DNA of 24,759 nt. Source: a virus. Taxonomy: Duplodnaviria; Heunggongvirae; Uroviricota; Caudoviricetes. A program made the translations under genes and the position numbers. The notes below the pieces were generated by a model that searched no databases, had not been told where the DNA came from, and saw nothing but the letters and a program-made list of their open reading frames with translations. Positions 1,419 through 24,202 of this stretch are shown here, piece after piece (within the stretch, counting starts at the first letter, position 1; each line of letters opens with the position of its first letter). Where the stretch lies: IMG/VR virus record IMGVR_UViG_2537561689_000015; one strand, written 5' to 3'.

Positions 1419-3890
1419 TTAAAAATCAGCCTGACTCGGGATCAGTTTTTGCCAGATTGCTGAAACGTATTTTGCCTGGTAACGGGCGTCATCAAGTGCA
1501 TTATGGCGCTCACCTTCGAATGGAATAGCCGTTCTGGCATCGAAGTCTATGGCTTTCCCCAGCTCAACGATTGTGCGTACATCGCGATCGTTGTAGTAAC
1601 GCCACGGGCAGGGGATCCCCTGCCGTTCGTATGAACGGCGCAAAATCGTGTTGTCGAAGTTGGCTCCATTTCCCCAGACCTGAACAAAAAATTCGCCGGA
1701 GTTTTCGTCGATAAATTCCCGCAATTGTAACAGTGCATCATCTAACGGGATTTCATCGGTCATAATAGCAGATTGCGCTTCGCGTGATTGCTTAAGCCAC
1801 CATTTAATGGTGTCCCGATCAATGACTCCGCCAGCAGTTTCCAGATCGATAGTCTTACTAAATTCCGGTCCCATATCTCCGGTTTGCGGATCGAAAAATA
1901 TTGCACCTATTGAGATGATCGGGGCATCGGGATTTTTTCCCATGGTTTCAAGGTCGATCATTAGATGGTCACACGTCCTGCTGGTGGATGTGATAACGCG
2001 ATGACCGTTCACCGTAATTAAGGGATCTGCCGTCTCGCCAGTTTCACTATCGCTGGCGTGATCCTGAGCGCTGCCAGCATTCTCCTTGTGTGGATGTTCA
2101 GCGCCTTCCATTTTCTCCGAATCGTCTTCCTGAACTTCAACCTGGTTCTTGTCATCGAATGTTTCCTGGTATGTTGCGTCGCCCATCACCGCGCCACAAT
2201 CAGGGCAGTTGCCGCCGCCGGTCTGGCCGCAGGCGGTGCAGATCTTTTCCGGTTCCTGTTGCACTACTGGTTCAGGTTGTTTCGTTTCTTGCTCGTTTTG
2301 TAACGCATTTGGGCTGTTTTGTTCCGCTTTCTGGCCGTTCTGTTCCGTTTCTTGCTGGTTCTGGTTCACAGAATCGCGGGTTTCCATCCCCTTAACCCAT
2401 TTCGGATCATTCGGGTCGCTAATCCCTTCAATAAATTCACCACGTGATGCAGCAAGCAACTTATCGGCGTCAGGCTGGCTGATATTGGCTGCCTGCATAA
2501 TTTTGTTTACTTCGTCAGCGGTAACTTTTACCGGTTCTGGCTGTGCGGTCGTGTCAGATGCACCAGTATTTTGTTGTGAACCTGAGTATGTACTGTTTTT
2601 GCGGGCGAAATATTCTTCTTTCGTGATTTCAGTAGCCCCGGCAGCCAGCGCCTTATCCAGACCAGAAAGTTTGTTTGCGCGACCGTATTTTTCGCCATCC
2701 TTGTCGGTGAAGAGGAAGTAGAACGGCCCCTCACGCTCTACAGATGGTTCGACTTCCACTTTGCATTCGGTTTTTTCGTTGTCCGGAATTGCCGTTTCCA
2801 CTGCATCAGTTTCTGGTACTGGCGACGAGAGAGTATCAGTTGCGATCTGATTTGTTCCTTCATCTTCAAACACGCCCTTTGTAGTCAGGTATTCAGTAAT
2901 GTATTTGTTCAGTACCACAGGGTCTTTGTGAATGTCGATCGGACGCTCACGGACAAGGCCAAAAATAGTCTGGCGGTCGTAGCGAAGGGCATCAGGCTGT
3001 TTGCGTATTGATGCTGAGATACGCTTCCAGTCTTCGCGGTCGTTGTTGATAACTTCATTTTTTGCCCAGCGATGGATGCTGCCGTCAATGTTTCCGGCAT
3101 CAATGTCACCAGGCCACAGAGCGTAGGCCAGTTCATCATCCAGTGTTTTCCATGTCTGCTTATATTCGCGACGAATGACTGCAGTGACAGGGGGGATATT
3201 TTCTGCTGAGTTTTCAGTGTGCTGTCGGTTGACTCTGGCGCGGGCGAGATCAACAGCAGACGTGTATTTTCCAGTCTCTTTGCGCTCTGCGTCCTGCCGT
3301 TTTTTCCAGTTACGTAATTCAGCCTGAATTTCGGGCCATTTGGCACCCGGATTACATTTGTGTTTAACCCATCCGATAGCGAACAGTTTGCGTTCCGGAT
3401 ACATAGCGTTAATTTCAGGCGTTTTCATCAGTGCTTCAACGATATGCCCGTCAAAGGTAGCAACGTCTTCCTGCAGTAATTCCTGCGCGTCAATCGCCAT
3501 ATCAACGGTGATGTTTTCACATGTACCGAACTTAACCAGGACCGCGTTCTGTACTTCAAGGGACAGCTTGTCAAAATTGACGTTCATCGGATCGGATTCT
3601 GGTTCGACCGGAATAAAGGAAGCGGATTCCTCATCCCAGCGGTTTTCCTGCATATATTCAGCATCCCAGGAATCGAGGGCAGGGCGGGGTATACCGGGTT
3701 TATCCTCGCAAACAAGAAATTTATAAGCGCAGTCCTGAGCAGCCGGATAATGTTCCAGGAATTGCCAGTGAAATTTTGCGCGGGCGCGACGTTCATCACC
3801 GGCTTCAATGGCAGTGGCTACAGCGACGGCACCTTCTTCCTTTATTGCCTGTTCGTCCGGAATAGCGGCGCAAATAAAGACTTTACTCAT
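1419..3890 (-). CDS. Large exonuclease-family protein with C-terminal DnaQ-like DEDDh 3'-5' exonuclease domain
   Basis: 823-aa ORF. C-terminal region carries the three exonuclease motifs DLETMG, WGNGANFD and HNALDDARYQAKY. The central part has a CxxC...CPDC zinc-ribbon-like motif and a Q/E-rich low-complexity stretch. Confidence 0.85.
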   Translation of the reverse strand: MSKVFICAAIPDEQAIKEEGAVAVATAIEAGDERRARAKFHWQFLEHYPAAQDCAYKFLVCEDKPGIPRPALDSWDAEYMQENRWDEESASFIPVEPESDPMNVNFDKLSLEVQNAVLVKFGTCENITVDMAIDAQELLQEDVATFDGHIVEALMKTPEINAMYPERKLFAIGWVKHKCNPGAKWPEIQAELRNWKKRQDAERKETGKYTSAVDLARARVNRQHTENSAENIPPVTAVIRREYKQTWKTLDDELAYALWPGDIDAGNIDGSIHRWAKNEVINNDREDWKRISASIRKQPDALRYDRQTIFGLVRERPIDIHKDPVVLNKYITEYLTTKGVFEDEGTNQIATDTLSSPVPETDAVETAIPDNEKTECKVEVEPSVEREGPFYFLFTDKDGEKYGRANKLSGLDKALAAGATEITKEEYFARKNSTYSGSQQNTGASDTTAQPEPVKVTADEVNKIMQAANISQPDADKLLAASRGEFIEGISDPNDPKWVKGMETRDSVNQNQQETEQNGQKAEQNSPNALQNEQETKQPEPVVQQEPEKICTACGQTGGGNCPDCGAVMGDATYQETFDDKNQVEVQEDDSEKMEGAEHPHKENAGSAQDHASDSETGETADPLITVNGHRVITSTSRTCDHLMIDLETMGKNPDAPIISIGAIFFDPQTGDMGPEFSKTIDLETAGGVIDRDTIKWWLKQSREAQSAIMTDEIPLDDALLQLREFIDENSGEFFVQVWGNGANFDNTILRRSYERQGIPCPWRYYNDRDVRTIVELGKAIDFDARTAIPFEGERHNALDDARYQAKYVSAIWQKLIPSQADF

Positions 3891-6175: not shown

Positions 6176-6228
6176 AATTTAGTTTTCTCATGAGTGTTGG
6201 TCAAGTGCTTTTAATGAGAAAACTCAAT
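6176..6228 (-). promoter_or_regulatory. Predicted leftward early promoter (pL-like) with operator repeats (OL)
   Basis: On the minus strand: TTGACC (plus 6199-6204), a 17-bp spacer, then TAAATT (plus 6176-6181). Operator-like TGAGAAAACT(C/A)AA copies lie at about 6178-6191 (minus orientation) and 6215-6227 (plus orientation); the first sits in the promoter spacer. Confidence 0.5.
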
Positions 6229-6288
6229 ATTTAATGCAAAATAAAGCCAATACATTGAAATGTAAGGCTTTAAAATTTGTGAAGGGGA

Positions 6289-6696
6289 TTACTGATGTTT
6301 GTTACGTTTGCGAGCTTCTAGTAGCTCGGTGAATAGGCGATTAAAATTCTCAACGCGGGCACGGAGTTCGCTGATTTGTGCTTGCTGCTCTGATTTTGGA
6401 AGTGCGCGATACAATCGCAACATCTCCAACTCATCTTCCGATAAGTCTAAGGCGCTGTTGAGTGCAACTGGTGGATCTGGTGTTTTATCCTCGTCACCAA
6501 ACAGTATCCAAGTTGGTGAACATTGCAATACCTCAGCCAGGCGATGCAAATTTTGCCCACGCGGGGCTGTATGGTCGCTTTCCCATAGTGAAATTGATGA
6601 GCCAGATACGCCAGCGGCTTTGCTTAAATCGTTTTGACTTAAACCAACCTGTTTGCGTCTTTCTCTAATTCGTTGACCTAAAGTTTTCTCGTTCAT
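6289..6696 (-). CDS. Prophage repressor, XRE/cI-type helix-turn-helix, without a peptidase domain
   Basis: 135 aa. N-terminal HTH region (QRIRERRKQVGLSQNDLSKAAGVSGSSISLWE) followed by a helical C-terminus. Too short to carry a LexA/S24 autocleavage domain. Divergent from the Cro-like gene. No Shine-Dalgarno sequence before its ATG, so it may be leaderless. Confidence 0.85.
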   Translation of the reverse strand: MNEKTLGQRIRERRKQVGLSQNDLSKAAGVSGSSISLWESDHTAPRGQNLHRLAEVLQCSPTWILFGDEDKTPDPPVALNSALDLSEDELEMLRLYRALPKSEQQAQISELRARVENFNRLFTELLEARKRNKHQ

Positions 6697-6714
6697 ATTT
6701 AGATATCTTAATAA

Positions 6715-6761
6715 CCCTTGACTTGAGATTCCTTGAGTGATTACTATTGAGAAAACTCAAT
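6715..6761 (+). promoter_or_regulatory. Predicted rightward early promoter (pR-like) with operator repeats (OR)
   Basis: TTGACT at 6718-6723, an 18-bp spacer, then TACTAT at 6742-6747. Operator TTGAGAAAACTCAA at 6747-6760 overlaps the -10 and start region. Further TTGAG half-sites at 6723 and 6733. Confidence 0.5.
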
Positions 6762-6773
6762 TTTGGAGGGGTG

Positions 6774-7001
6774 ATGTTTAAATCAGACGTAATTAATTTT
6801 TATGGGACGAAAGCCAAAGTAGCGAAAGCTGCTGGTGTTGATCCATCTGCTGTTTCTCAATGGGGGGAACTGGTTCCTGAAGGTCGCGCGATGCGCCTGC
6901 AAGAGGCATCCGACGGGGAACTTCAGTACGACCCCAAAGTTTATGACGAATATCGTAAGGCAAAGCGGGCGGGGCGGTTGAACAATGAAAATCACCCCTG
7001 A
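6774..7001 (+). CDS. Cro-like small DNA-binding regulator (YdaS-like family)
   Basis: Start taken at the ATG at 6774, preceded by GGAGGGG (the track start at 6747 is a TTG inside the promoter). HTH-like segment with the VSQW motif common to Cro/YdaS-type proteins. Divergent from the repressor. Confidence 0.7.
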   Translation: MFKSDVINFYGTKAKVAKAAGVDPSAVSQWGELVPEGRAMRLQEASDGELQYDPKVYDEYRKAKRAGRLNNENHP

Positions 7002-7506
7002 ACAGGTTTGTGAGGCTCTGGATGCCTGGGTATGTCGACCAGGAATGACACAGGAGCAGGCGACGATATTAATCACGGAAGCATTCTGGGCTCTGAAAGA
7101 ACGCCCGAACATCGATGTTCAACGCGTCACGTTTAATGATGGCGAGGTTGATCAACGGGCGCTGGGCGTTAACCGGGTGAAGATATTCGAACGCTGGAAA
7201 GCTATCGACACCAGGGATAAGCGGAAAAAATTCACGGCGCTGATTCCGGCAATTATGGAGGCTATCCGGATTAATGATTTCAGGTTGTATCGTGAAATTA
7301 CTGACGGAAAAAGCATTACGTACATGATCGCCGGGTTAAATAAAGAATATGGCGATGTGGTGGAATCCGGACTGCTTTTTGCAGATCCAGCTGTAGTGGA
7401 TCGTGAAACTGACGAACTTATAGAAAAAGCAATTGCTTTCAAGCTTGCGTATCGACAGCAATACCAACAAAAAGCTGGATGGAATTATGAGTCTTCTTTT
7501 TGCTGA
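6985..7506 (+). CDS. YdaT-like protein (proposed CII-type regulator family)
   Basis: 173 aa, immediately after the Cro-like gene and before the O-like gene, the position YdaT occupies in Rac-type prophages. Overlaps both neighbours. Assignment by position and general resemblance, not a verified alignment. Confidence 0.7.
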   Translation: MKITPEQVCEALDAWVCRPGMTQEQATILITEAFWALKERPNIDVQRVTFNDGEVDQRALGVNRVKIFERWKAIDTRDKRKKFTALIPAIMEAIRINDFRLYREITDGKSITYMIAGLNKEYGDVVESGLLFADPAVVDRETDELIEKAIAFKLAYRQQYQQKAGWNYESSFC

Positions 7507-8452
7507 ACGCCCACTGGTTATAAACACGCAGCTGGCAATGAAAATTGGCTTAAACGAAGCCATTGTTTTGCAACAACTGCACTACTGGTTGAGAGATACC
7601 AACTCCGGCATGGAATGTGATGGTGTTCGCTGGGTTTATAACACAACGGAACAATGGCTGGAACAGTTCCCGTTCTGGTCAGAGTCAACGTTAAAGCGCG
7701 CGTTTGCAAGTCTGAAAACGCTGGGGCTTTTGCGTTGTGAAAAGCTCAATAAATCAAAGCGCGATATGACCAATTTCTACACGATCAACTACGGGAACGA
7801 GCTTTTAGATGGTGGCAAAGTGAGCGAATCCATCGGTTCAAAATGCGCCGCTCCATCAGGTCAAAATGACACGATGGAAGAGGCTAAAATGGCACGTTCC
7901 ATTGGTTCAAAACGACTCAATGTCATCGGGTCAAAATGGCCTGATGATCTTACAGAGAATACAACAGAGATTACTACAGAGAATAAAAACACTTCTCGTC
8001 CGGAAGCTTCGCAACCGGACCCGCAGACGGTTGAACGGGATTTTTTAACCCGACACCCTGACGCGGTTGTGTTCAGTGCAAAAAAACGCCAGTGGGGCAA
8101 CCAGGAAGATTTGGCGTGTGCGCAGTGGATCTGGGGGCGAATCGTGAGTCTTTACGAGCAGGCCGCCAGCGATGATGGCGAGATTTCGCGACCGAAAGAA
8201 CCCAACTGGACCGCATGGGCCAACGACGTGCGCACAATGCGGATGCTGGATGGCAGAACTCACAGACAAATTTGTGAAATGTTTGGTCGGGCGCAGCGGG
8301 ATCCATTCTGGGTAAAAAATATCATGAGTCCGTCAAAGCTTCGCGGAAAATGGGATGAACTGGTTATCCGCCTGGGGCGTTCGTCTGTACAGCGTTGTGT
8401 GAATCATATTTCTGAGCCGGATACCGAAATTCCGCCGGGGTTCAGGGGGTAA
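7487..8452 (+). CDS. Replication initiation protein (lambda O-like, origin-binding)
   Basis: Start taken at the ATG at 7487 (track 7433, same frame). N-terminal DNA-binding-like region. Iteron repeats lie inside the gene and encode a repeated IGSK peptide. Followed by a DnaC-like loader gene. Confidence 0.8.
   Translation: MSLLFAERPLVINTQLAMKIGLNEAIVLQQLHYWLRDTNSGMECDGVRWVYNTTEQWLEQFPFWSESTLKRAFASLKTLGLLRCEKLNKSKRDMTNFYTINYGNELLDGGKVSESIGSKCAAPSGQNDTMEEAKMARSIGSKRLNVIGSKWPDDLTENTTEITTENKNTSRPEASQPDPQTVERDFLTRHPDAVVFSAKKRQWGNQEDLACAQWIWGRIVSLYEQAASDDGEISRPKEPNWTAWANDVRTMRMLDGRTHRQICEMFGRAQRDPFWVKNIMSPSKLRGKWDELVIRLGRSSVQRCVNHISEPDTEIPPGFRG
7829..7938. repeat. Replication-origin iterons inside the O-like gene
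   Basis: Four copies of about 17 bp, TCCATCGGTTCAAAATG-like, at 7829, 7852, 7898 and 7923. Spacing is in multiples of about 23 bp, with a degenerate copy near 7875. Followed by an A-rich stretch at about 7945-7995. Confidence 0.6.
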
Positions 8453-8457
8453 CGGCC

Positions 8458-9204
8458 ATGAAAAATATCGCGGCAGGTGGTGTTCTTGAGCGTATCCGTA
8501 AGCTGACCCCGCAGCATGTAATCGCGCCGTACCGGACAGTGGATGAGTGGCGCGAGTGGCAACTGGCTGAAGGGCGAAAACGTAGCGAGGAGATCAACCG
8601 CCAGAATCGCCAGTTGCGGGTGGAAAAAATCCTGAATCGTTCGGGCATCCAGCCTCTGCACAGCAAATGCTCGTTTGCGAATTATCAGGTGCAGAACGAC
8701 GGGCAAAAACATGCGCTGAGCCAGGCAAAATCCATCGCTGACGAACTGATGACCGGGTGCACGAATTTTGTGTTCAGCGGTAAGCCGGGTACCGGAAAGA
8801 ACCACCTTGCAGCCGCCATTGGCAATCATCTTCTGGCGAAAGGTCGCAGCGTGATTGTGATAACGGTGGCTGATGTGATGCTGGCGTTACACAACAGCTA
8901 CGACAACAAAAACTCAGGCGAAAAATTTTTACAGGGGTTGTGTGATGTTGACCTGCTTGTCCTGGATGAAATCGGAATGCAGCGGGATACGCGCAACGAG
9001 CAGGTCACACTGAACCAGATAGTCGACCGCAGAACGGCTTCGATGCGTAGTGTCGGAATGCTGACGAACCTGAACCACGTAGCGATGAGTACGCTTCTTG
9101 GCGAGCGTGTGATGGACCGCATGGTCATGAACGGTGGTCGCTGGGTGAATTTTAACTGGGAGAGCTGGCGTTCGAATGTCAGACACCTGAGGGTTGTGAA
9201 GTAA
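8458..9204 (+). CDS. DnaC-like / IstB-like AAA+ helicase loader (replication protein)
   Basis: Walker A motif GKPGTGKNHLAAAIG and Walker B-like LLVLDEIG. Lies immediately downstream of the O-like gene. Preceded by AGGGGG. Confidence 0.9.
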   Translation: MKNIAAGGVLERIRKLTPQHVIAPYRTVDEWREWQLAEGRKRSEEINRQNRQLRVEKILNRSGIQPLHSKCSFANYQVQNDGQKHALSQAKSIADELMTGCTNFVFSGKPGTGKNHLAAAIGNHLLAKGRSVIVITVADVMLALHNSYDNKNSGEKFLQGLCDVDLLVLDEIGMQRDTRNEQVTLNQIVDRRTASMRSVGMLTNLNHVAMSTLLGERVMDRMVMNGGRWVNFNWESWRSNVRHLRVVK

Positions 9205-9225
9205 TTTTGTCCGGAGGAAATTTTA

Positions 9226-9987
9226 ATGGAAACCGTTTTTGACGCACTGAAAGCAATGGGAAAAGCCACATCGGTAGAACTGGCCGCGCGACTTGATATC
9301 AGTCGTGAAGAGGTTCTCAACGAGCTGTGGGAACTCAAAAGAAATGGCGTCGTTGATAAAACTGGTCACACCTGGTTTCTGGCTGGCGAAGGTGAATCCC
9401 TGGTAACCGAAGAGCGGCCAGTAAAATCTGAAGCACAGGATATGCTGACCGGGGAGGTCGAACAAAAAGTTACAGCAGACATGATGATTGAGTTTATCGG
9501 TCAGGATGGGGCTAAAACGTGTGAAGAACTGGCGGGTAAGTTCGGCATCAGTACTCGCAAGGTTGCTTCCACGCTGGCGGTGGTAACTGCAACGGGGCGA
9601 CTGGCACGCGTTAATCAGAGCGGTAAATTTCGTTACTGCATGCCGGGCGGTAATTTACCAGCAGAGCCGAAAGCAGCATCGGTAACGGAAAATGATGGTA
9701 AGGCCTTTCCTCAGCCAGCAGGTGTTGCGTTACCAGTCCGGGAAGCCGCAACACAGGAAGAAATTAAAACAGAAACTGTAGCGGGCATTGTGCAGTCGCT
9801 GCCATCGTTTACTGAAACGCGAGCGGATGACCTGATTTTACCATCGCTGCATATGGCAAACCTCGAACTGCGTCGGGCGAAAAGTCATGTCCAGAAGTGG
9901 GAACGAGTCTGCGCCGCGCTGCGGGAGCTGAACAAGCACCGGGATATTCTTCGTGATATTACCGCGACCGGAGAGCTGCAGCGGTGA
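9226..9987 (+). CDS. Hypothetical protein with two winged-helix-like segments
   Basis: 253 aa, preceded by GGAGGA. Two HTH-like segments (around residues 15-45 and 100-130). Function unknown. Confidence 0.7.
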
Positions 9988-11322: not shown

Positions 11323-11533
11323 AAACGGTTTGCGGGGAAATCTTAGTTAAGTAGAATGACTGTGGGTGCTTGAGGCTATCTGTCTCAGGCATGAACACCA
11401 AAAGGCAGATAGAGAAAAGCCCCAGTTAACATTACGCGTCCTGCAAGACGCTTAACATTAATCTGAGGCTCAATCCATGCTGAACACATGTAGGTTAGCC
11501 TCTTACGTGCCGAAAGGCAAGGAGAAGCAGGCT

Positions 11534-11689
11534 ATGAAGCAGCAAAAGGCGATGTTAATCGCCCTTATCGTCATCTGTTTAACCGTCATAGTGACGGCAC
11601 TGGTAACGAGGAAAGACCTCTGCGAGGTACGAATCCGAACCGGCCAGACGGAGGTCGCTGTCTTCACAGCTTACGAACCTGAGGAGTAA
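11534..11689 (+). CDS. hok: Hok/Gef-family type I toxin (small membrane toxin)
   Basis: 51-aa product MKQQKAMLIALIVICLTVIVTALVTRKDLCEVRIRTGQTEVAVFTAYEPEE, which I recognise as Hok-family (closest in my memory to HokD/RelF). Strong AAGGAGAAG Shine-Dalgarno. An in-frame upstream extension from 11477 may be a Mok-like leader reading frame. Structured leader and a terminal hairpin as in hok mRNAs. Confidence 0.85.
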   Translation: MKQQKAMLIALIVICLTVIVTALVTRKDLCEVRIRTGQTEVAVFTAYEPEE

Positions 11690-14451: not shown

Positions 14452-14817
14452 ATGACTGAACGCATAGAATTTGTTTTGCCTTACCCGCCAACGGTGAACA
14501 CTTACTGGCGACGTCGTGGCAGCACATATTTTGTATCAAAAGCCGGTGAGCGTTATCGCCGTGATGTGGCGCTTATTGTTCGCCAGCAGCGGCTGAAATT
14601 AAACCTGTCCGGAAGGCTGGTGATAAAGATTATTGCAGAGCCACCGGATAAACGTCGTCGTGACCTGGACAATATCCTGAAAGCACCACTGGATGCGCTG
14701 ACGCATGCCGGACTTCTCATAGACGACGAGCAGTTTGATGAAATCAATATTGTGCGCGGTCAGCGCGTTCCTGGGGGGCGGCTGGGCGTGAAGATTTACA
14801 AAATTGAGAGTGAGTGA
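14452..14817 (+). CDS. rusA: RusA-type Holliday junction resolvase
   Basis: 121 aa. Start overlaps the upstream stop (ATGAATG). Sequence LPYPPTVNTYW...RRRDLDNILKAPLDAL is characteristic of the RusA family, and it sits in the nin-region position before Q. Confidence 0.9.
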   Translation: MTERIEFVLPYPPTVNTYWRRRGSTYFVSKAGERYRRDVALIVRQQRLKLNLSGRLVIKIIAEPPDKRRRDLDNILKAPLDALTHAGLLIDDEQFDEINIVRGQRVPGGRLGVKIYKIESE

Positions 14818-14825
14818 TCGTAAAT

Positions 14826-15368
14826 ATGATATACCCGGAAATTACAGGCAAAAGCGGCGAGCATTTACGTCTAAAAACGCTGGAAGCCGTCTGGATCCAG
14901 GGGAAATTACGGATGTGGGGGCGTTGGTCGTATATAGGTGGTGGCAAACCAGGAAATATGTTCAATCAGTTGCTGGCATCCAAAAAACTGACAAAAACCG
15001 CAATCAATGAAGCCCTGCGTAGAATCAGGGAGTCAGGGATTGATAAACCAGAGCTGGAAGCATTCTTGCGAGAGATGATCGCTGGCAGACAGAAGAGCTG
15101 GTTGTCTCACTGTACTGATGCAGAGGCGTTACGCATTGATGGGGTGATAAGTAAAGCGCTTGCACGTTATCCTGGATTGATTGATATCCTGCGGCAAAGG
15201 TACGAAGGGCGGGGGATGAGTAAACGCAAAATGGCTGAATTGTTGAATGAGGTTCACCCTGAGTGGTGCTATGCAACATGCCGCAATCGTATAGATATGT
15301 GGCTGAGAATAGCTGAGTTTATTCTGTATCCACTGATGCGAGATGCATTTTCTTTTACTGACGCTTAG
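14826..15368 (+). CDS. Late-gene antiterminator Q-like protein
   Basis: Start taken at the ATG at 14826 (track starts at a GTG at 14814 overlapping the rusA stop). Position directly upstream of a late promoter and terminator region and the lysis genes. Contains an MWGRW segment reminiscent of Q-family proteins. Assignment mainly by context. Confidence 0.7.
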   Translation: MIYPEITGKSGEHLRLKTLEAVWIQGKLRMWGRWSYIGGGKPGNMFNQLLASKKLTKTAINEALRRIRESGIDKPELEAFLREMIAGRQKSWLSHCTDAEALRIDGVISKALARYPGLIDILRQRYEGRGMSKRKMAELLNEVHPEWCYATCRNRIDMWLRIAEFILYPLMRDAFSFTDA

Positions 15369-16028: not shown

Positions 16029-17078
16029 ATGATTAATACTGTAAAAATATCCAGTTGTGAGTTAATCAACGCTGATTGCCTGGAGTTTATCCAGACCTTA
16101 CCGGAAAACTCTGTCGATCTGATAGTCACAGACCCGCCATACTTTAAAGTGAAGCCCGAGGGCTGGGATAACCAGTGGGAGGGCGACGATGATTACCTGA
16201 AATGGCTGGACCAGTGTCTGGCGCAGTTCTGGCGGGTACTGAAGCCTGCCGGAAGTCTTTACCTGTTCTGTGGTCATCGCCTGGCATCTGACACCGAAAT
16301 CATGATGCGTGAGCGCTTTAATGTGCTGAACCACATTATCTGGGCGAAGCCGTCCGGACGCTGGAACGGGTGCAATAAGGAAAGTCTGCGGGCGTATTTT
16401 CCGGCAACAGAGCGCATTCTGTTTGCAGAACATTATCAGGGACCGTATCGCCCGAAAGATGATGGCTATGTGGCACAGGGGCGCGAGCTAAAACAGCACG
16501 TCATGGCCCCGCTGATTTCTTACTTTCGTGATGCGCGTAAATCACTGGGAATAACGTCAAAACAGATAGCGGAAGCCACCGGAAAGAAAAACATGGCTTC
16601 GCACTGGTTTGGTACCAGTCAGTGGCAGTTACCGAACGAGGGTGATTACAACAAATTGCAGGCGTTGTTTGCGCGTGTTGCGGCAGAAAAACATCAGCGC
16701 GGGGAACTGGAAAAGCCACACCACCAGCTGGTCAGCACATACAGTGAGCTGAACCGGCAGTATACGGAACTGCTGAGTGAATATAAAAATTTGCGGCGGT
16801 ATTTCGGTGTGACGGCGCAGGTTCCGTACACCGATGTCTGGACGCATAAACCGGTGCAGTACTATCCAGGGAAACATCCGTGCGAAAAACCGGCAGAAAT
16901 GCTGCAGCAGATAATCAACGCGAGCAGTCGTCCGGGAGACCTGGTTGCAGATTTTTTTATGGGTTCAGGTTCAACGGTAAAAGCGGCGATGGCACTGGGG
17001 CGTTGTGCGATTGGTGTTGAGCTGGAGACCGGACGTTTTGAACAGACAGTCAGGGAAGTTCAGGATTTAATCGTTTGA
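16029..17078 (+). CDS. DNA methyltransferase (N6-adenine or N4-cytosine, beta-class motif order)
   Basis: Catalytic motif IV DPPY near the N-terminus and AdoMet-binding motif I FFMGSGST near the C-terminus. 349 aa. No adjacent restriction endonuclease, so it is probably an orphan phage methyltransferase. Confidence 0.9.
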   Translation: MINTVKISSCELINADCLEFIQTLPENSVDLIVTDPPYFKVKPEGWDNQWEGDDDYLKWLDQCLAQFWRVLKPAGSLYLFCGHRLASDTEIMMRERFNVLNHIIWAKPSGRWNGCNKESLRAYFPATERILFAEHYQGPYRPKDDGYVAQGRELKQHVMAPLISYFRDARKSLGITSKQIAEATGKKNMASHWFGTSQWQLPNEGDYNKLQALFARVAAEKHQRGELEKPHHQLVSTYSELNRQYTELLSEYKNLRRYFGVTAQVPYTDVWTHKPVQYYPGKHPCEKPAEMLQQIINASSRPGDLVADFFMGSGSTVKAAMALGRCAIGVELETGRFEQTVREVQDLIV

Positions 17079-17127: not shown

Positions 17128-17203
17128 GGCCCTTTAGCTCAGTGGTGAGAGCGAGCGACTCATAATCGCCAGGTCGCTGGTTCAAATCCAGCAAGGGCCA
17201 CCA
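17128..17203 (+). tRNA. tRNA with CAU anticodon (Ile2/lysidine-type or Met)
   Basis: Hand-folded cloverleaf: acceptor GGCCCTT/AAGGGCC, D-stem GCTC/GAGC, anticodon loop CTCATAA, T-loop TTCAAAT, 3' CCA encoded. Resembles the ileX/ileZ-type tRNA of E. coli. Confidence 0.85.
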
Positions 17204-17210
17204 TCACATA

Positions 17211-17287
17211 CCGCCATTAGCTCATCAGGATAGAGCGCCAGCCTTCGAAGCTGGTTGCGCGGGGTTCGAGTCCTCGATGGCGGTCCA
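17211..17287 (+). tRNA. tRNA-Arg (anticodon UCG)
   Basis: Hand-folded cloverleaf: acceptor CCGCCAT/ATGGCGG, anticodon stem CCAGC/GCTGG with loop CTTCGAA, T-loop TTCGAGT, CCA encoded. Confidence 0.8.
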
Positions 17288-17300
17288 TTATCTGTACCCT

Positions 17301-17377
17301 GCGTTGTTAGCTCAGCCGGACAGAGCAATTGCCTTCTAAGCAATCGGTCACTGGTTCGAATCCAGTACAACGCGCCA
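17301..17377 (+). tRNA. tRNA-Arg (anticodon UCU)
   Basis: Hand-folded cloverleaf: acceptor GCGTTGT/ACAACGC, anticodon stem ATTGC/GCAAT with loop CTTCTAA, T-loop TTCGAAT, CCA encoded. Confidence 0.8.
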
Positions 17378-20732: not shown

Positions 20733-21560
20733 ATGGGTTTTTCATCAGCCCGAAATTTGGGAAGGGACATATCGGCAGGATTTTCCCCACCACGTCGCAT
20801 GCCGATTTCGGAGGCTGTTAAAAAATTCATGCGTGTTCCCAAGGGGGCTGGTAACTCGGTGCCATGGGATCCTGAACTGACACCCTACATCATTGAGCCC
20901 ATGAACTGCCTGGCATCGCGTGAATACGATGCGGTGATTTTTGTTGGTCCTGCGCGAACAGGGAAGACCATTGGTCTGATCGATGGATGGATTGTCTATA
21001 CCATCGTTTGCGATCCTTCGGACATGCTCGTTGTGCAGATGACCGAAGATAAGGCCCGCGAGCATTCTAAAAAGCGCCTCGACAGAACGTTCAGAAGCAG
21101 TGCGGCGGTAAAGAAAAGAATGAGTCCACGTCGTAACGACAATAATGTCCATGATAAGACGTTCAGGGATGGCTCGTTCCTTAAAATTGGTTGGCCCTCG
21201 GTCAACATTATGTCGTCGTCGGATTACCGGTTTGTCGCCTTAACCGATTACGACCGTTTTCCGGAGAATATCGACAGCGAGGGTGATGGTTTCTCCCTGG
21301 CCTCAAAACGTACCACCACATTTATGTCCGCCGGGATGACTCTGGTGGAGAGCTCGCCGGGACGTGACATCTGCGACAGCAAATGGCGACGTAAGTCGCC
21401 TCATGAAGCGCCACCGACGACTGGTATTCTTTCCCTTTACAATCGTGGTGACCGCCGCCGCTGGTACTGGCCATGTCCGCACTGCGGTGAATATTTTCAG
21501 CCAGCCATGGATGCCATGACCGGCTACCGTAATGAACCGGATCCCTTTAAAGCCAGGTAA
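20733..21560 (+). pseudogene. Terminase large subunit, N-terminal fragment truncated by IS insertion
   Basis: ATG preceded by AGGAGG. P-loop-like FVGPARTGKT and a CPHCGE zinc motif. The frame ends at a TAA created by the first bases of the IS element (GTAAGCG). Confidence 0.8.
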
Positions 21561-21586: not shown

Positions 21587-23158
21587 TTACTGAGAGCTCA
21601 GATCAACTTTCCAGGGCAACAGATCGCGTACCCGGTTTGCCGGCCAGTCCTGGATATGTTCAATGACGTAACGCAGCCACTTTTCTGGCTCCACATTGTT
21701 CAGACGGCATGTGCCGATCAGCGAGTACAACACCGCCGCATGTTCACCACCGCTGTCGGAACCCGCGAACATCCAGTTTTTCCGGCCTACGGCCACTCCC
21801 CGTAAGGCGTTCTCTGCGATGTTGTTGTCGATTTCCACCCAGCCATTACTGCAGTACACGTTCAGTGCATCCCACTGTTTCAGCAGGTATGCGAACGCTT
21901 TTGCCGTATCTGAGTGACGCGACAGTGTTTTCATCTGTTGCTGTATCCAGTCATACAGTGACTGCATCAGTGGCGCGGCTCTGGCTTTTCTTGCCGCCAG
22001 ACGCTGTTCTGCTGAACAGCACCGGACCTCTGCCTCGATGGCATACAGTTCACCGATACGCTGCAGGGCTTCCGTGGTGATGTAGGTGGGCGCTCTTGCA
22101 TGCACATCGTGGATTTTTCTCCGGGCATGAGCCATACACGCGGCTTCCGTTATTCTGCCGGATTCGTATAACGCCCGGTAACCACCGTAAGCATCGGCCT
22201 GAAGCACACCGCTGTAACCGGCCAGGTGATTTTGTGGATGGATACCTTTCCGGTCCGGACTGTACGCGAACCAGACCGCCGGGGGCATCTGTGAACCGGC
22301 GTTACGGTCATCACGGACGTAGACCCACAGCCGGGCTGTCCGGGTTTTACCGCTGCCCGGCTCCTGGACCGGGACGGGGATATCATCAGCATGGACTTTA
22401 CCGGGCATCAGCACATACTGGCGCAGGACGTCATACAGCGGCTCCAGTAGTTCAGCAACGGCACCTGTCCAGCGCCCCAGTGTGGCACGGCTCAGCTCCA
22501 CACCCTGACGGCGGTATATCTCTGACTGGCGGTATAACGGCAGATGGTCTGCATATTTCCCGGTGACGACATGGGCCAGGAGCCCCGCTCCGGCATAACT
22601 GCGTGCAATGGGTTTTGAAGGTACTGGTGCCTGCACGATATGGTCGCACCGACAACAGGCCAGTTTCGGACGTTGTGTTTCGATAACCTTAAAGGCGCTG
22701 CTGATAAGCTCCAGTTGCTCTGACACATCACATCCCAGAGAACTGAGTTCACCACCACAGGCAGGACAGCATTCCTCTTCCGGCCGGATAACCCGGGTTT
22801 CACGGGAAAGTGAGGCCGGTAACGGTTTACGGGCTGAAGACTGGCGCAGGGCGGATGGCAGTACCGGGTCATATTGCTCACCCAGCGTTTCCGCCATTTC
22901 TTCCTGAAGTGCGCTGATTCGCTCCTGTGCTTCCTGTATCTGCCGTTCGGTTTTTGCACGAAGTTTTTCTGAGCTTTTACCGAACTGCATACGTTGCAGT
23001 TTCGCAACCAGCGCCTTCAGCCGGTTGATTTCGGAAGCATAAGCCGCCACCCGCTGTGAGAGCAGGCGGTTGTATTCAGCCATCTGGCGTATGGTGTCCT
23101 GTTGCGTCTGCAACAGTGCCCGCAGGCGGGCGTTCTCATGAGCAAGTGAGGTGTCCAT
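21587..23158 (-). CDS. tnpC: IS66-family transposase (TnpC/Orf3)
   Basis: 523 aa with an N-terminal coiled-coil or leucine-zipper region and a Cys-rich zinc motif (CPACGG...CCRC), the typical size and layout for IS66 transposases. Confidence 0.9.
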
Positions 23159-23177
23159 ATCCTCACTTTACAACGGG

Positions 23178-23525
23178 TTATATGCGGATTCCAGCGCGTT
23201 CCGTTCGTTTCGGGTGCTTCCAGTTGATACCTTCAAGAAGCATGGATAACTGAGCCGGAGTAAGGTGCACCTTGCCGTCACGGGTGACTGGCCAGACGAA
23301 GCGGCCCCGCTCCAGGCGTTTGGTGAAGAGGCACAGTCCGTCACTGTCAGCCCACAACACTTTTATCTGGTCACCCCGGCGTCCGCGGAAGATGAACAGG
23401 TGTCCGGAGAACGGGTCATCCTTCAGGACGTTCTGAACTTTTGATGCCAGGCCGTTAAAGCCATTTCGCATATCGGTGATACCTGCAACCAGCCAGATAC
23501 GCGAACCTGCAGGGAGAGATATCAT
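23178..23525 (-). CDS. tnpB: IS66-family accessory protein TnpB (Orf2)
   Basis: 115 aa, between the Orf1 and transposase genes. The sequence MISLPAGSRIWLVAGITDMRNGFNGL is characteristic of IS66 Orf2. Confidence 0.9.
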   Translation of the reverse strand: MISLPAGSRIWLVAGITDMRNGFNGLASKVQNVLKDDPFSGHLFIFRGRRGDQIKVLWADSDGLCLFTKRLERGRFVWPVTRDGKVHLTPAQLSMLLEGINWKHPKRTERAGIRI

Positions 23526-24202
23526 CAGTGGCTGCTCCCTTTTATTTCGCGGATAAGTGTCTGTAATAACGCCGGCGTCAGTTTACCTTTAAGCCTGAGA
23601 GTTCCGGCCGGCAGAACCAGCTCACAACACAGACTGTCGGACGGTGTATTTATCTGCTCTGGTTCCTGTGCGGGGGCCGGGATTTTATTATCCGGCTCCG
23701 GCGTTAACGTCACGGGAAGCAGTGCCGGCATATTTTTTCCGGAAGGCAGCAGGCCACCTTTCCGGTATTGATGGCGCCAGTTGAAGAGCAGGTTATCGTT
23801 GATTCCGTTTTCCCGGGCGATCTGCGCCACACAGGCTCCGGGCTGCAGTGACTGCTCCACTAAGGCGATTTTAAACTCATAAGGGAAGTTGGGCCGCCGG
23901 GGACGTTTTTTTACCACGGGGGCTTCGGATATAACGGTGCTTTCAGGACGTACGACTGGTACCGTGGAAAATTGTCCGTAAAGGCAGGCATCAAGTTCCT
24001 GCTCCGACATGCCTGCGGGCAAAGGCCACGAAAGGCCAGCTCTCCGAAAGCGCACGAACATACTACAAACAGTTGATTTTGGTACACCCAGGCGACGCCC
24101 GGCCACAACCCGGGGTAAATGTTCTTCAAAGTGAAGACGTAAAGCTTCAGTGATCCAGGTCCGGTGTTTCATACGATAGTGTCCATTAAAAATGATGGAC
24201 AT
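23525..24202 (-). CDS. tnpA: IS66-family accessory protein TnpA (Orf1); start uncertain
   Basis: Track ORF of 225 aa; the true start may be internal (for example the ATG at 24172). HTH-like region. Its stop overlaps the TnpB start. Confidence 0.75.
   Translation of the reverse strand: MSIIFNGHYRMKHRTWITEALRLHFEEHLPRVVAGRRLGVPKSTVCSMFVRFRRAGLSWPLPAGMSEQELDACLYGQFSTVPVVRPESTVISEAPVVKKRPRRPNFPYEFKIALVEQSLQPGACVAQIARENGINDNLLFNWRHQYRKGGLLPSGKNMPALLPVTLTPEPDNKIPAPAQEPEQINTPSDSLCCELVLPAGTLRLKGKLTPALLQTLIREIKGSSH

What the first reader, a model, noticed from the sequence alone, without database searches (positions are those of the whole stretch)
7829..7995. Phage replication origin embedded in the O-like gene
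Four to five roughly 17-bp iterons (TCCATCGGTTCAAAATG consensus) at about 23-bp periodicity are followed by an A/T-rich stretch, all inside the coding sequence of the O-like initiator, where they encode a repeated IGSK peptide. This mirrors the lambda ori arrangement and marks the likely origin of this replicon.
Basis: partly seen in the sequence, partly recalled or inferred. Interest (0 to 1): 0.45.

Follow-up and report, generated by a model that had tools for sequence, protein, structure and literature searches.

The report
Prophage replication origin inside initiator gene
A short array of repeated DNA sites followed by a conserved A-rich repeat, sitting inside the replication-initiator gene of an E. 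coli prophage, is very probably that prophage's replication origin; the layout is the classic lambda one, but the same design recurs in a very large, little-studied initiator family found from E. coli to Bacillus.

Summary
Window 7829-7945 holds five 23-24-nt units with core GGTCAAAATG. Four are good copies and the third is mutated here but intact in close relatives. A conserved A-rich 12-mer repeat (ACAGAGAWTAC x3, 7952-7986) follows, all inside the O-like initiator ORF (7487-8452).

The repeats act as DNA, not as peptide. The 23-nt period puts copies in different reading frames, so only three of five encode IGSK. Among 54 distinct close homologues the usual excess of third-codon-position diversity disappears there (pi3/pi12 about 1, against 7.5-7.8 in both flanking domains).

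The C-terminal half is homologous to lambda O's C-domain, and the array lies at the same relative position as ori-lambda. The N-domain is a different winged-helix family with different iterons, and the partner gene is DnaC-like, not lambda P.

In 60 of 79 diverse relatives the same site carries at least 3 periodic repeats, against 0 of 79 in control segments. The repeat sequences are lineage-specific. The 12-mer tract is conserved across phyla under clear synonymous-codon constraint (Glu GAG 101, GAA 0).

This is a new member of a known kind. The conserved 12-mer is the one part that may be new. Origin activity itself is inferred and has not been shown.

The parts
6718..6747 (+). pR-like sigma-70 promoter match (TTGACT-18-TACTAT) upstream of the cro-like gene; would drive rightward transcription through cro-like, cII/YdaT-like, O-like and DnaC-like genes, and so across the origin
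   Evidence: Only promoter-like match in 6200-9300. This is a consensus match only; function is not shown.
7487..8452 (+). O-like replication initiator gene (321 aa from ATG 7487; the ORF listing extends it to TTG 7433)
   Evidence: phrog_391 'replication initiation O-like' 2.3e-94 over residues 35-339. No Pfam hit. The start at 7487 matches the annotation in phage PhiR42_1.
7487..7825 (+). N-terminal winged helix-turn-helix domain, the presumed iteron-binding domain
   Evidence: AlphaFold2 model pLDDT 83.5 with a wHTH secondary-structure order. Best Foldseek PDB matches are RepA_N plasmid initiator N-domains and a Rep-DNA complex, but weakly (E about 1e-3, TM about 0.55). 10,408 cluster representatives match at E<=1e-3. 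Residue 67 at the start of the predicted recognition helix tracks iteron class.
7829..7851 (+). iteron unit 1, TCCATCGGTTCAAAATGCGCCGC (read as SIGSKC)
7852..7874 (+). iteron unit 2, TCCATCAGGTCAAAATGACACGA (different frame, read as APSGQND)
7875..7897 (+). iteron unit 3, degenerate here (TGGAAGAGGCTAAAATGGCACGT); close relatives have GAGGTCAAAATGA
7898..7921 (+). iteron unit 4, TCCATTGGTTCAAAACGACTCAAT (read as SIGSKR)
7922..7944 (+). iteron unit 5, GTCATCGGGTCAAAATGGCCTGA (read as VIGSKW); the copy with the best internal dyad (CATCgGG...CCtGATG)
   Evidence: (inverted repeat I1)
7946..7990 (+). A-rich tract starting with a GATC site and holding three 12-nt repeats ACAGAGAWTAC (7952, 7964, 7976); presumed DNA-unwinding element, constrained in sequence
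   Evidence: TRF period 12, 2.8 copies. Least stable 41-mer in 6700-9300. Three of the four matches to the motif in the whole window lie here. Conserved across phyla with synonymous-codon constraint. Lowest diversity in the gene. 97.5% identical over 40 nt to the equivalent stretch of Stx-phage O genes whose iterons differ.
7998..8020 (+). short inverted repeat GTCCGG (7998-8003) / CCGGAC (8015-8020) just after the tract, at the mosaic junction with the C-domain module
   Evidence: Read from the sequence. Conserved in relatives, including L003 with a different N-module. Role not tested.
7991..8383 (+). linker plus C-terminal domain homologous to the lambda O C-domain (the part of lambda O that contacts the helicase loader)
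   Evidence: BLASTP against lambda O: residues 147-294 versus 135-270, 35% identity, E 3e-27.
8384..8449 (+). C-terminal 22-residue tail matching the C-terminal motif of primosomal protein DnaT (SEPDxxIPPGFRG)
   Evidence: NCBIfam DnaT E 0.003, 17 bits against a cutoff of 201. PDB DnaT chains 2ru8, 6aep and 9zbt at E 0.008-0.03.
8458..9204 (+). DnaC-like helicase loader gene, 6 nt downstream of the initiator gene
   Evidence: NF009043 2.4e-150; DnaC equivalog model 1e-94 but below its cutoff; Pfam IstB_IS21 2.6e-18; phrog_50 'DnaC-like helicase loader'.

Best explanation
Window 7829-7990 is the vegetative (theta-type) replication origin of this lambdoid E. coli prophage, built on the lambda plan but from different parts.

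Proposed mechanism (all steps inferred unless marked shown):
1. The O-like initiator is expressed from the pR-like rightward operon.
2. Its N-terminal winged-helix domain binds, probably as dimers, to the five partly palindromic iterons (family consensus GGTCAA-A-ATGACC), which are spaced about two helical turns apart.
3. The resulting nucleoprotein complex stresses the adjoining A-rich 12-mer tract (7946-7990) and opens it.
4. The lambda-O-like C-domain and the DnaT-like tail recruit host DnaB through the DnaC-like loader encoded 6 nt downstream.

Shown here: the repeats and the tract exist, they are statistically non-random, they are under nucleotide-level rather than protein-level constraint, they sit at the position homologous to ori-lambda, and they recur family-wide with lineage-specific iteron sequences.

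Not shown: binding, unwinding, helicase loading and firing.
For: - Non-random array: 4 copies against at most 2 in 300 codon shuffles. Regular 5-copy array in close relatives.
- DNA-level constraint: the copies occupy all three reading frames. In 54 distinct homologues pi3/pi12 is 1.0 in the iterons and 0.9 in the tract, against 7.5 in the N-domain and 7.8 in the C-domain. Third-position diversity over 7829-7990 is 0.026, against a minimum of 0.072 in any non-overlapping window of the gene.
- Initiator identity: phrog_391 at 2e-94 and C-domain homology to lambda O at E 3e-27.
- Same relative position as the annotated lambda iterons.
- Least stable segment of the replication region, with an A-rich coding strand as in lambda.
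- Family-wide recurrence: 60 of 79 loci have at least 3 periodic copies after the N-domain, against 0 of 79 in each of three controls.
- Dyad-symmetric consensus in 28 of 39 arrays, against about 10% of shuffled consensuses.
- Iteron class co-varies with residue 67 of the predicted recognition helix.
- The modules exchange as expected for an origin tied to its N-domain. Klebsiella phages share N-domain, iterons and tract but have another C-domain. An O157 prophage shares the C-domain and DnaC but has its own N-domain and its own repeats.
- A 16-kb Bacillus plasmid has the same in-gene layout in its only candidate rep gene.
- Precedents: lambda and Stx-phage origins (PMC7466680) and SPP1 oriL inside gene 38 (PMC6316719).
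Against: - I found no experimental origin mapping for any member of this N-domain family.
- The N-domain is not lambda O's (no PF04492 hit, hhalign E 0.56). DNA binding is therefore inferred from the fold, and the fold matches are weak.
- Unit 3 is mutated in this window, and the right half-sites of its copies are poor, so this particular origin could be weakened.
- The prophage looks defective for packaging, because an IS66 element abuts a truncated terminase gene. Selection on its origin may therefore be relaxed.
- The closest relatives (L008-L011, PhiR42_1) lack the DnaC-like gene downstream, so the loader step is not a fixed part of the system.
- The residue-67 correlation is confounded by shared ancestry.
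Confidence: 0.8

Rival explanations
1. The repeats are initiator-binding sites used mainly for control rather than for firing. They could serve autoregulation, a roadblock or attenuation of the rightward transcript, copy-number 'handcuffing', or exclusion of related phages. The site of initiation would then lie elsewhere.
For: Iterons in plasmids also serve control functions, and cloned lambda ori fragments inhibit related phages (PMC3349717 and PMC4488673, listed). Nothing computed here separates 'binds the initiator' from 'fires as an origin'.
Against: The array always abuts a conserved, easily melted, strand-asymmetric tract. That arrangement is what an origin needs and what an operator does not. 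No other iteron-like cluster near an A/T-rich tract was found in the replication region. The layout and position match ori-lambda.
Confidence: 0.1
2. The conserved A-rich 12-mer tract is chiefly a recombination 'linker'. On this view it is a stretch kept identical between otherwise unrelated initiator genes because it mediates homologous exchange of N- and C-terminal modules, and it is not a functional unwinding element.
For: Mosaic breakpoints fall at about 7985/7986, right at the end of the tract. The tract is 97.5% identical over 40 nt to Stx-phage O genes whose iterons and C-domains differ.
Against: The tract is conserved from Enterobacterales to Bacillaceae and Lactobacillaceae, where N-domains are only 50-58% identical and synonymous sites elsewhere are saturated. 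Even there Glu is GAG 101 times and GAA never. Its fixed position, a median of 27 nt after the last iteron, and its fixed strand (166 copies in the linkers against 5 on the opposite strand anywhere) point to a role in cis. The two roles are not exclusive.
Confidence: 0.07
3. The repeats are a protein-level feature, a repetitive flexible linker peptide (IGSK..., TENTTEITTE), with no role as DNA.
For: The region is coding, lies between two folded domains, and three units do encode (S/V)IGSK. The T-E-x-T frame of the tract is almost always the same (158 of 166 copies).
Against: The 23-nt period places the units in all three frames. Across the family, units of one array are translated differently. 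First- and second-position diversity rises while third-position diversity collapses in the array. Synonymous codon choice in the tract is essentially fixed.
Confidence: 0.03

Closest known systems
ori-lambda with the O/P proteins of phage lambda, and the six-iteron origins of Stx phages 933W and P27 (PMC7466680)
   Same: The origin lies in the middle of the initiator gene, between a DNA-binding N-domain and a C-domain. There are four to six partly palindromic iterons about 20-24 bp apart with an A-tract centre (lambda TCCCTCAAAACGAGGGA; here GGTCAAAATGACC). An A-rich, easily melted stretch follows on the coding strand, then a short inverted repeat. The gene lies in the rightward cro-cII-O operon. 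The C-domain is homologous (35% identity, E 3e-27).
   Different: The N-domain is a different family (no PF04492 hit, no hhalign signal) and the iteron sequence is unrelated. The partner is a DnaC/IstB-type AAA+ loader, not lambda P. The protein ends in a DnaT-like tail. The A-rich stretch is a conserved 12-mer repeat rather than a loosely A/T-rich run.
SPP1 oriL inside gene 38 (replisome organiser gp38, loader gp39, helicase gp40; PMC6316719)
   Same: Direct repeats plus an A/T-rich unwinding element inside the initiator gene, followed by loader and helicase genes. Replication from oriL has been reconstituted in vitro, so the design is proven to work in Gram-positive phages.
   Different: No detectable sequence relationship between gp38 and this N-domain (hhalign E 0.6). 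The repeats differ (GAAACGACA / GAAAAAGACAC) and there is no ACAGAGAWTAC tract.
RepA_N plasmid initiators of Gram-positive bacteria (for example pSK41 and pTZ2162 RepA; PDB 4pql, 4pt7, 5kbj)
   Same: From my own knowledge of this family: the iterons lie centrally within the rep gene between a winged-helix N-domain and a host-specific C-domain. Their N-domains are the best structural matches to the model made here.
   Different: The structural similarity is weak (E about 1e-3, TM about 0.55, 16-18% identity). There is no Pfam RepA_N hit. Membership is not supported.
DUE 13-mers of plasmid RK2 oriV and F oriS, bound as single strands by TrfA and RepE (PMC4081077)
   Same: Short repeats inside the unwinding element next to the iterons, whose exact sequence and strand matter. 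This is a precedent for the sequence-constrained 12-mer tract seen here.
   Different: Different sequences. Those origins lie outside the rep gene. No binding data exist for the element here.
DopC/DopE, domesticated lambda O/P-like genes (PMC5509034), and the chromosomal dnaT-dnaC operon
   Same: An O-like HTH N-terminus combined with the DnaT C-terminal motif, next to a helicase-loader gene.
   Different: DopC was reported to lack iteron-like sequences. The protein here keeps a full iteron array and tract, and it sits in a prophage.

Membership tests
lambda-type origin (ori inside the initiator gene) | Array of four or more direct repeats inside the initiator ORF, between the N- and C-terminal domains | tested here: met
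   Five units at 7829-7944 (four good, one degenerate), 342 nt into the gene. Lambda's iterons start at 348 nt.
lambda-type origin (ori inside the initiator gene) | Each repeat has internal dyad symmetry | tested here: inconclusive
   The family consensus GGTCAA-A-ATGACC is symmetric at 5 of 6 positions, and 28 of 39 arrays score at least 5 of 6 against about 10% of shuffles. In this window the right half-sites are weak (ATGCGC, ATGACA, ATGGCA, ACGACT, ATGGCC).
lambda-type origin (ori inside the initiator gene) | A/T-rich, strand-asymmetric, easily melted region directly downstream of the repeats | tested here: met
   7949-7989 is the least stable 41-mer in 6700-9300. Base counts over 7945-7995 are A 24 and T 11. 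GC is 0.325-0.375.
lambda-type origin (ori inside the initiator gene) | Initiator N-domain belongs to Phage_rep_O (PF04492) | tested here: not met
   No Pfam hit at E<=0.01, whereas lambda O scores 5.7e-36. hhalign of the N-domain profile against the lambda O N-domain gives E 0.56.
lambda-type origin (ori inside the initiator gene) | Initiator C-domain homologous to the lambda O C-domain | tested here: met
   35% identity over 148 residues, E 3e-27.
lambda-type origin (ori inside the initiator gene) | Partner gene is a lambda P-type helicase loader | tested here: not met
   The downstream gene is DnaC/IstB-like. tblastn with lambda P finds 2 of 79 family loci.
lambda-type origin (ori inside the initiator gene) | The initiator binds the repeats, and the segment supports initiator-dependent replication | not testable with these tools
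   Needs EMSA or footprinting and a plasmid replication assay.
lambda-type origin (ori inside the initiator gene) | The origin is transcribed from the rightward early promoter (transcriptional activation) | tested here: inconclusive
   The gene order cI(-) / cro-like / cII-YdaT-like / O-like / DnaC-like, with a single promoter-like match at 6718-6747, is consistent with this. No expression data.
phrog_391 / this winged-helix initiator family (alignment A1) | Full-length HMM match to the family | tested here: met
   phrog_391 at 2.3e-94 over residues 35-339 of the TTG-start ORF. The N-domain finds 10,408 cluster representatives.
phrog_391 / this winged-helix initiator family (alignment A1) | Periodic (20-25 nt) repeats right after the N-domain, followed by ACAGAGAWTAC repeats (features defined here, not in the literature) | tested here: met
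   The window has both. 60 of 79 loci have at least 3 periodic copies. 66 of 79 have at least one 12-mer and 57 of 79 at least two.
RepA_N plasmid initiators | Sequence or fold membership of the N-domain | tested here: inconclusive
   They are the top Foldseek PDB hits but weakly so (E 1.5e-3, TM 0.56). No Pfam RepA_N match.
SPP1 gp38-type replisome organiser | Sequence homology to gp38 | tested here: not met
   hhalign E 0.6.
Primosomal protein DnaT | Full-length match to the DnaT equivalog model | tested here: not met
   Only the last 22 residues match, at 17.2 bits against a cutoff of 201. PDB hits are confined to the same tail.

The most novel reading that the evidence does not exclude
The A-rich element is not a generic unwinding region. 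It is a sequence-specific origin signal, (TACAGAGAWTAC)n, conserved at nucleotide level across phyla in a very large family of phage, prophage and plasmid initiators, while the neighbouring iterons diverge lineage by lineage. That would mean a two-part origin code. The variable palindromic iterons would be read by variable residues of the winged-helix domain, with residue 67 as a candidate. The invariant 12-mer would be read, possibly as one single strand as with TrfA and RepE on DUE 13-mers, by an invariant surface of the initiator or by a conserved host factor. If so, the motif would serve as a general marker for locating origins in thousands of uncharacterised mobile elements. I found no description of it in the searchable literature.
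Probability: 0.35. Interest if true: 0.65.

Novelty: new member of a known kind. Interest (0 to 1): 0.42.

Why it matters
For this window, the result locates the prophage's likely origin and shows which bases matter. That is useful for anyone studying induction, copy number or superinfection exclusion of this common E. coli prophage type. Sequences similar to the initiator-plus-DnaC-like segment occur in 3,712 of 5,426 complete E. coli genomes, most of them partial matches, with 224 genomes covering at least 80% of it.

More broadly, the initiator's N-domain has no Pfam model, and NCBI's annotation pipeline mostly calls the protein 'hypothetical'. Yet it heads a family of more than 10,000 sequence clusters in which the origin can be read directly from the gene. 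The lineage-specific iterons and the co-varying helix residue make initiator specificity a directly testable question. The invariant, codon-constrained 12-mer suggests that the 'A/T-rich region' of such origins carries sequence information, which has been shown so far only for a few plasmid and chromosomal origins.

Tried and rejected
- Pfam on the initiator gave no family. A sequence search of the PDB returned only the DnaT-like tail.
- My first codon-usage count inside the 12-mer tract was circular, because the tract had been selected by its DNA pattern. I replaced it with a peptide-selected test.
- My first diversity analysis used an over-strict start motif and found only 30 sequences. I redid it with blastn-defined homologues, 78 sequences of which 54 are distinct, with the same result.
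- A literature search for the 12-mer and its peptide found only chance primer matches.
- I looked for a link to an experimentally proven origin through SPP1 gp38 and found no homology.
- The small Paracaedibacter plasmid (L168), whose only candidate rep gene carries this N-domain, has no in-gene array, so the layout is not universal.
- The 43.7-kb E. coli 'plasmid' (L004) is a circular lambdoid phage genome and is not evidence of plasmid-type maintenance.
- The DnaT-tail function could not be resolved from the 2026 preprimosome structure paper.
- The mutual-information analysis puts residue 67 first, but neighbouring values are close and ancestry is not corrected for, so I treat it only as a lead.
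- I considered a DnaA-trio-like reading and a primase-site reading of the 12-mer. I dropped both as untestable speculation.
Full report
**What is in the sequence**

Window 7829-7944 contains five head-to-tail units of 23-24 nt:
- TCCATCGGTTCAAAATGCGCCGC
- TCCATCAGGTCAAAATGACACGA
- TGGAAGAGGCTAAAATGGCACGT
- TCCATTGGTTCAAAACGACTCAAT
- GTCATCGGGTCAAAATGGCCTGA

The repeat finder reports four of them as one family, starting at 7831, 7854, 7900 and 7924 with spacing 23, 46, 24. The degenerate pattern CATYRGKTCAAAAYG matches exactly at these four places and nowhere else in the window without mismatch. That pattern came from the data, so I also ran an unbiased test. The largest 15-mer family (at most 3 mismatches, within 130 nt) in the ORF has 4 members, and 300 codon-shuffled versions of the ORF never exceeded 2.

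The 46-nt gap holds a fifth unit that is mutated in this window (GGCTAAAATG). In close relatives it is a regular copy (GGTCAAAATG), giving a 23/23/23/24 array.

Directly downstream, 7946-7990 starts with a GATC site and holds three 12-nt repeats, ACAGAGAATAC, ACAGAGATTAC and ACAGAGAATAA (TRF period 12). It is the least stable 41-mer between 6700 and 9300. It is A-rich on the coding strand, with A 24 and T 11 over 7945-7995.

**The repeats act as DNA, not as peptide**

The period is not a multiple of three. Units 1, 4 and 5 are read as (S/V)IGSK, unit 2 as APSGQN, and unit 3 in the third frame.

I compared 54 distinct full-length, ungapped homologues (92-100% identical in the N-terminal half). 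Third-codon-position diversity exceeds first- and second-position diversity 7.5-fold in the N-domain and 7.8-fold in the C-domain. The ratio is 1.0 in the iterons and 0.9 in the tract. Third-position diversity across 7829-7990 is 0.026, while no non-overlapping window of equal size in the gene falls below 0.072 (median 0.146). Within the array, the 15-nt cores vary less than the spacers (0.024 against 0.054).

**The host gene and its surroundings**

The ORF most likely starts at ATG 7487, as annotated in phage PhiR42_1, and ends at 8452. It matches PHROG 391 'replication initiation O-like' at 2e-94 but has no Pfam family.

Its C-terminal half is homologous to lambda O's C-domain (35% identity over 148 residues, E 3e-27), and the alignment begins at the last iteron. 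The array starts 342 nt into the gene. The annotated lambda iterons start 348 nt into O.

The last 22 residues match the C-terminal motif of DnaT. This combination has already been noted for the O-like protein DopC (PMC5509034).

Six nucleotides downstream lies a DnaC-like loader gene (NF009043, 2e-150). Upstream are a cI-like repressor on the minus strand, a P22-Cro/YdaS-like gene and a YdaT/cII-like gene. The only sigma-70-like promoter match in the region sits just before the cro-like gene.

The window is 100% identical to the chromosome of E. coli strain 120899. It is a lambdoid prophage with integrase, a Q-like antiterminator and terminase.

**The N-domain**

An AlphaFold2 model built from a 25-sequence alignment is confident (pLDDT 83.5) and has a winged helix-turn-helix order of elements. 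Foldseek against the PDB returns only winged-helix proteins. The first hits are the N-domains of staphylococcal RepA_N plasmid initiators, including a Rep-DNA complex, but the scores are weak (E about 1e-3, TM about 0.55). I use this only as support for a DNA-binding fold.

The domain shows no relationship to lambda O's N-domain (hhalign E 0.56) or to SPP1 gp38 (E 0.6). It is distantly related to the HTH_36-type N-domain of an O157 prophage initiator (hhalign probability 90%).

It is very widespread. 10,408 cluster representatives match at E<=1e-3. It occurs in Staphylococcus, Bacillus, Listeria, Lactobacillus, Pseudomonas, Erwinia and Klebsiella phages and on plasmids.

I fetched 79 usable genomic loci whose N-domains are 49-98% identical to the window's. 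In the 250 nt after the N-domain, 60 of the 79 have at least 3 copies of an 11-mer spaced 20-25 nt apart (or twice that), 39 have at least 4, and 15 have at least 5. In three control segments of the same loci (the N-domain itself, 900 nt upstream, about 500 nt downstream) the count is 0 of 79 each.

The arrays begin about 320-360 nt into the gene, and their units fall in different frames.

The repeat sequence is lineage-specific:
- GGTCAAAATGACC in Escherichia, Xenorhabdus and Morganella
- GGGCAATTTGCAC or GGGCAAATTGCCC in Pantoea, Yersinia and Pseudomonas
- GGACAATTTGTCC in Pantoea and Mixta
- GCTCAAAATGAAC in Anoxybacillus
- GATCAAAATGATC in Limosilactobacillus

The general form is NNNCAA-W-TTGNNN. 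28 of 39 consensus units are symmetric at 5 or more of 6 positions, against about 10% of shuffled consensuses.

The alignment column most informative about iteron class is residue 67, at the start of the predicted recognition helix. It is S/A/E with T before CAA, D with G, and K with A. This is suggestive, but it is not corrected for shared ancestry.

**Modularity**

- Klebsiella phages share the N-domain, iterons and tract (about 77% DNA identity) but carry a Phg_2220_C C-domain.
- A Heyndrickxia locus carries a DnaB_2 C-domain.
- An O157:H7 prophage shares this window's C-domain and DnaC-like gene (85% identity) but has its own N-domain and its own repeats (TTGACCCGTCAA).

The breakpoints fall at about window 7985/7986. 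Genes downstream of the initiator vary: DnaC/IstB-like, DnaB-like, or none of these (DUF977, PerC, Dam). The iterons thus travel with the N-domain, as expected if that domain reads them.

**The A-rich tract is more than A/T-rich**

ACAGAGAHTAC (at most 1 mismatch) occurs 166 times in the linkers of 66 of the 79 loci. It occurs 16 times in the remaining roughly 366 kb, counting both strands. The first copy lies a median of 27 nt after the last iteron core.

To avoid circularity I selected on the peptide (T-E-x-T) instead of the DNA. The Glu codon is GAG 101 times and GAA never, against 743:881 elsewhere in the same genes (p about 2e-33). Thr is ACA or ACT in 199 of 201 cases. GAA would be richer in A/T, so selection is for a sequence and not simply for easy melting.

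The same stretch is 97.5% identical over 40 nt in Stx-phage O genes whose iterons, N-domain and C-domain differ. I found no paper containing the motif.

A precedent for a sequence-specific unwinding element exists. TrfA of RK2 and RepE of F bind one strand of the DUE 13-mers, and those sequences are needed for replication (PMC4081077).

**Interpretation**

The best explanation is that 7829-7990 is the prophage's theta-type origin, built like ori-lambda. Initiator dimers bind the five iterons, the adjoining tract opens, and host DnaB is delivered through the C-domain, the DnaT-like tail and the DnaC-like loader.

The anatomy, the constraint, the position and the family-wide recurrence are shown. 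Binding, opening, loading and firing are inferred from lambda and the Stx phages (PMC7466680) and from SPP1 oriL (PMC6316719).

Rival readings are given separately: control sites only, the tract as a recombination linker, and a peptide-level repeat. The last is contradicted by the data, and the first two cannot be excluded without experiments.

**Caveats**

- Unit 3 is mutated here, and the right half-sites are weak.
- The prophage carries an IS66 element next to a truncated terminase gene, so it may be defective.
- The nearest relatives lack the DnaC-like gene.
- One small plasmid with this N-domain lacks an in-gene array, while another has one.

**Novelty**

An origin inside the initiator gene is textbook knowledge for lambda and is established for SPP1 and for RepA_N plasmids. 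This is therefore a new member of a known kind. It uses an N-domain family with no Pfam model and, as far as I could find, no experimentally mapped origin.

The part that may be new is the invariant, codon-constrained 12-mer next to the lineage-specific iterons.

Noticed in passing
window 8384-8449: The last 22 residues of the O-like initiator (…NHISEPDTEIPPGFRG) match the C-terminal motif of primosomal protein DnaT, and the next gene is DnaC-like, which mirrors the chromosomal dnaT-dnaC pair. The same tail (…PAGFRG/S) also ends relatives with unrelated C-domains (L004, L005). The combination of an O-like protein with a DnaT C-terminal motif was reported for DopC (PMC5509034).
   Followed up: partly
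window ~7985/7986; L003, L005, L002: Mosaic breakpoints between initiator modules fall exactly at the end of the 12-mer tract. The tract itself is 97.5% identical over 40 nt to Stx-phage O genes that otherwise share nothing with this gene. It may double as a hotspot for module exchange.
   Followed up: partly
window 7998-8003 / 8015-8020: A short inverted repeat, GTCCGG...CCGGAC, lies just after the tract. It is conserved in relatives, including the O157 prophage with a different N-module. It resembles the inverted repeat to the right of lambda's A/T-rich region.
   Followed up: no
window 20733-21560 and 21587-24202: A 275-aa fragment of the terminase large subunit (GpA_ATPase) is followed directly by an IS66-family element on the minus strand (523-aa transposase plus accessory ORFs). 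The prophage is therefore probably defective for packaging.
   Followed up: partly
window 11364-11539: Rfam match to the sok antitoxin RNA (118.9 bits against a gathering score of 59), which indicates a hok/sok-type toxin-antitoxin locus inside the prophage.
   Followed up: no
window 17128-17377: A cluster of three tRNA genes (Met-CAT, Arg-TCG, Arg-TCT) lies downstream of a Q-like antiterminator (14814-15368) and an N6/N4 DNA methylase (16029-17078).
   Followed up: no
window 2277-2360: A 21-nt tandem repeat (4 copies, 65% matches) lies inside the 823-aa exonuclease-like ORF on the minus strand (1419-3890; C-terminal Rv2179c-like 3'-5' exonuclease domain).
   Followed up: no
proteins P0125, P0127, P0134, P0145 and others: Many family members of 400-880 aa contain two tandem copies of this N-domain. 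This architecture differs from the phage initiators and I did not examine it.
   Followed up: no
L004 (NZ_CP081704.1) and NZ_CP081794.1: Two E. coli records of about 43.7 kb labelled 'plasmid' are circular lambdoid phage genomes (Q, holin, RusA and so on). They carry a 78% identical N-domain relative with the same iterons and no DnaC-like gene. They may be replicating or excised phage captured by the assembly.
   Followed up: partly
L009, L010, L060: Metagenome-assembled genomes labelled Veillonella parvula, Bacillota and Collinsella contain DNA 97-98% identical to this E. coli prophage. These contigs are most likely mis-binned.
   Followed up: no
window 7433 vs 7487: The mechanical ORF starts at TTG 7433, but relatives are annotated from the ATG at 7487. 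That start overlaps the end of the cII/YdaT-like gene (stop at 7506) by 20 nt, which suggests translational coupling.
   Followed up: partly
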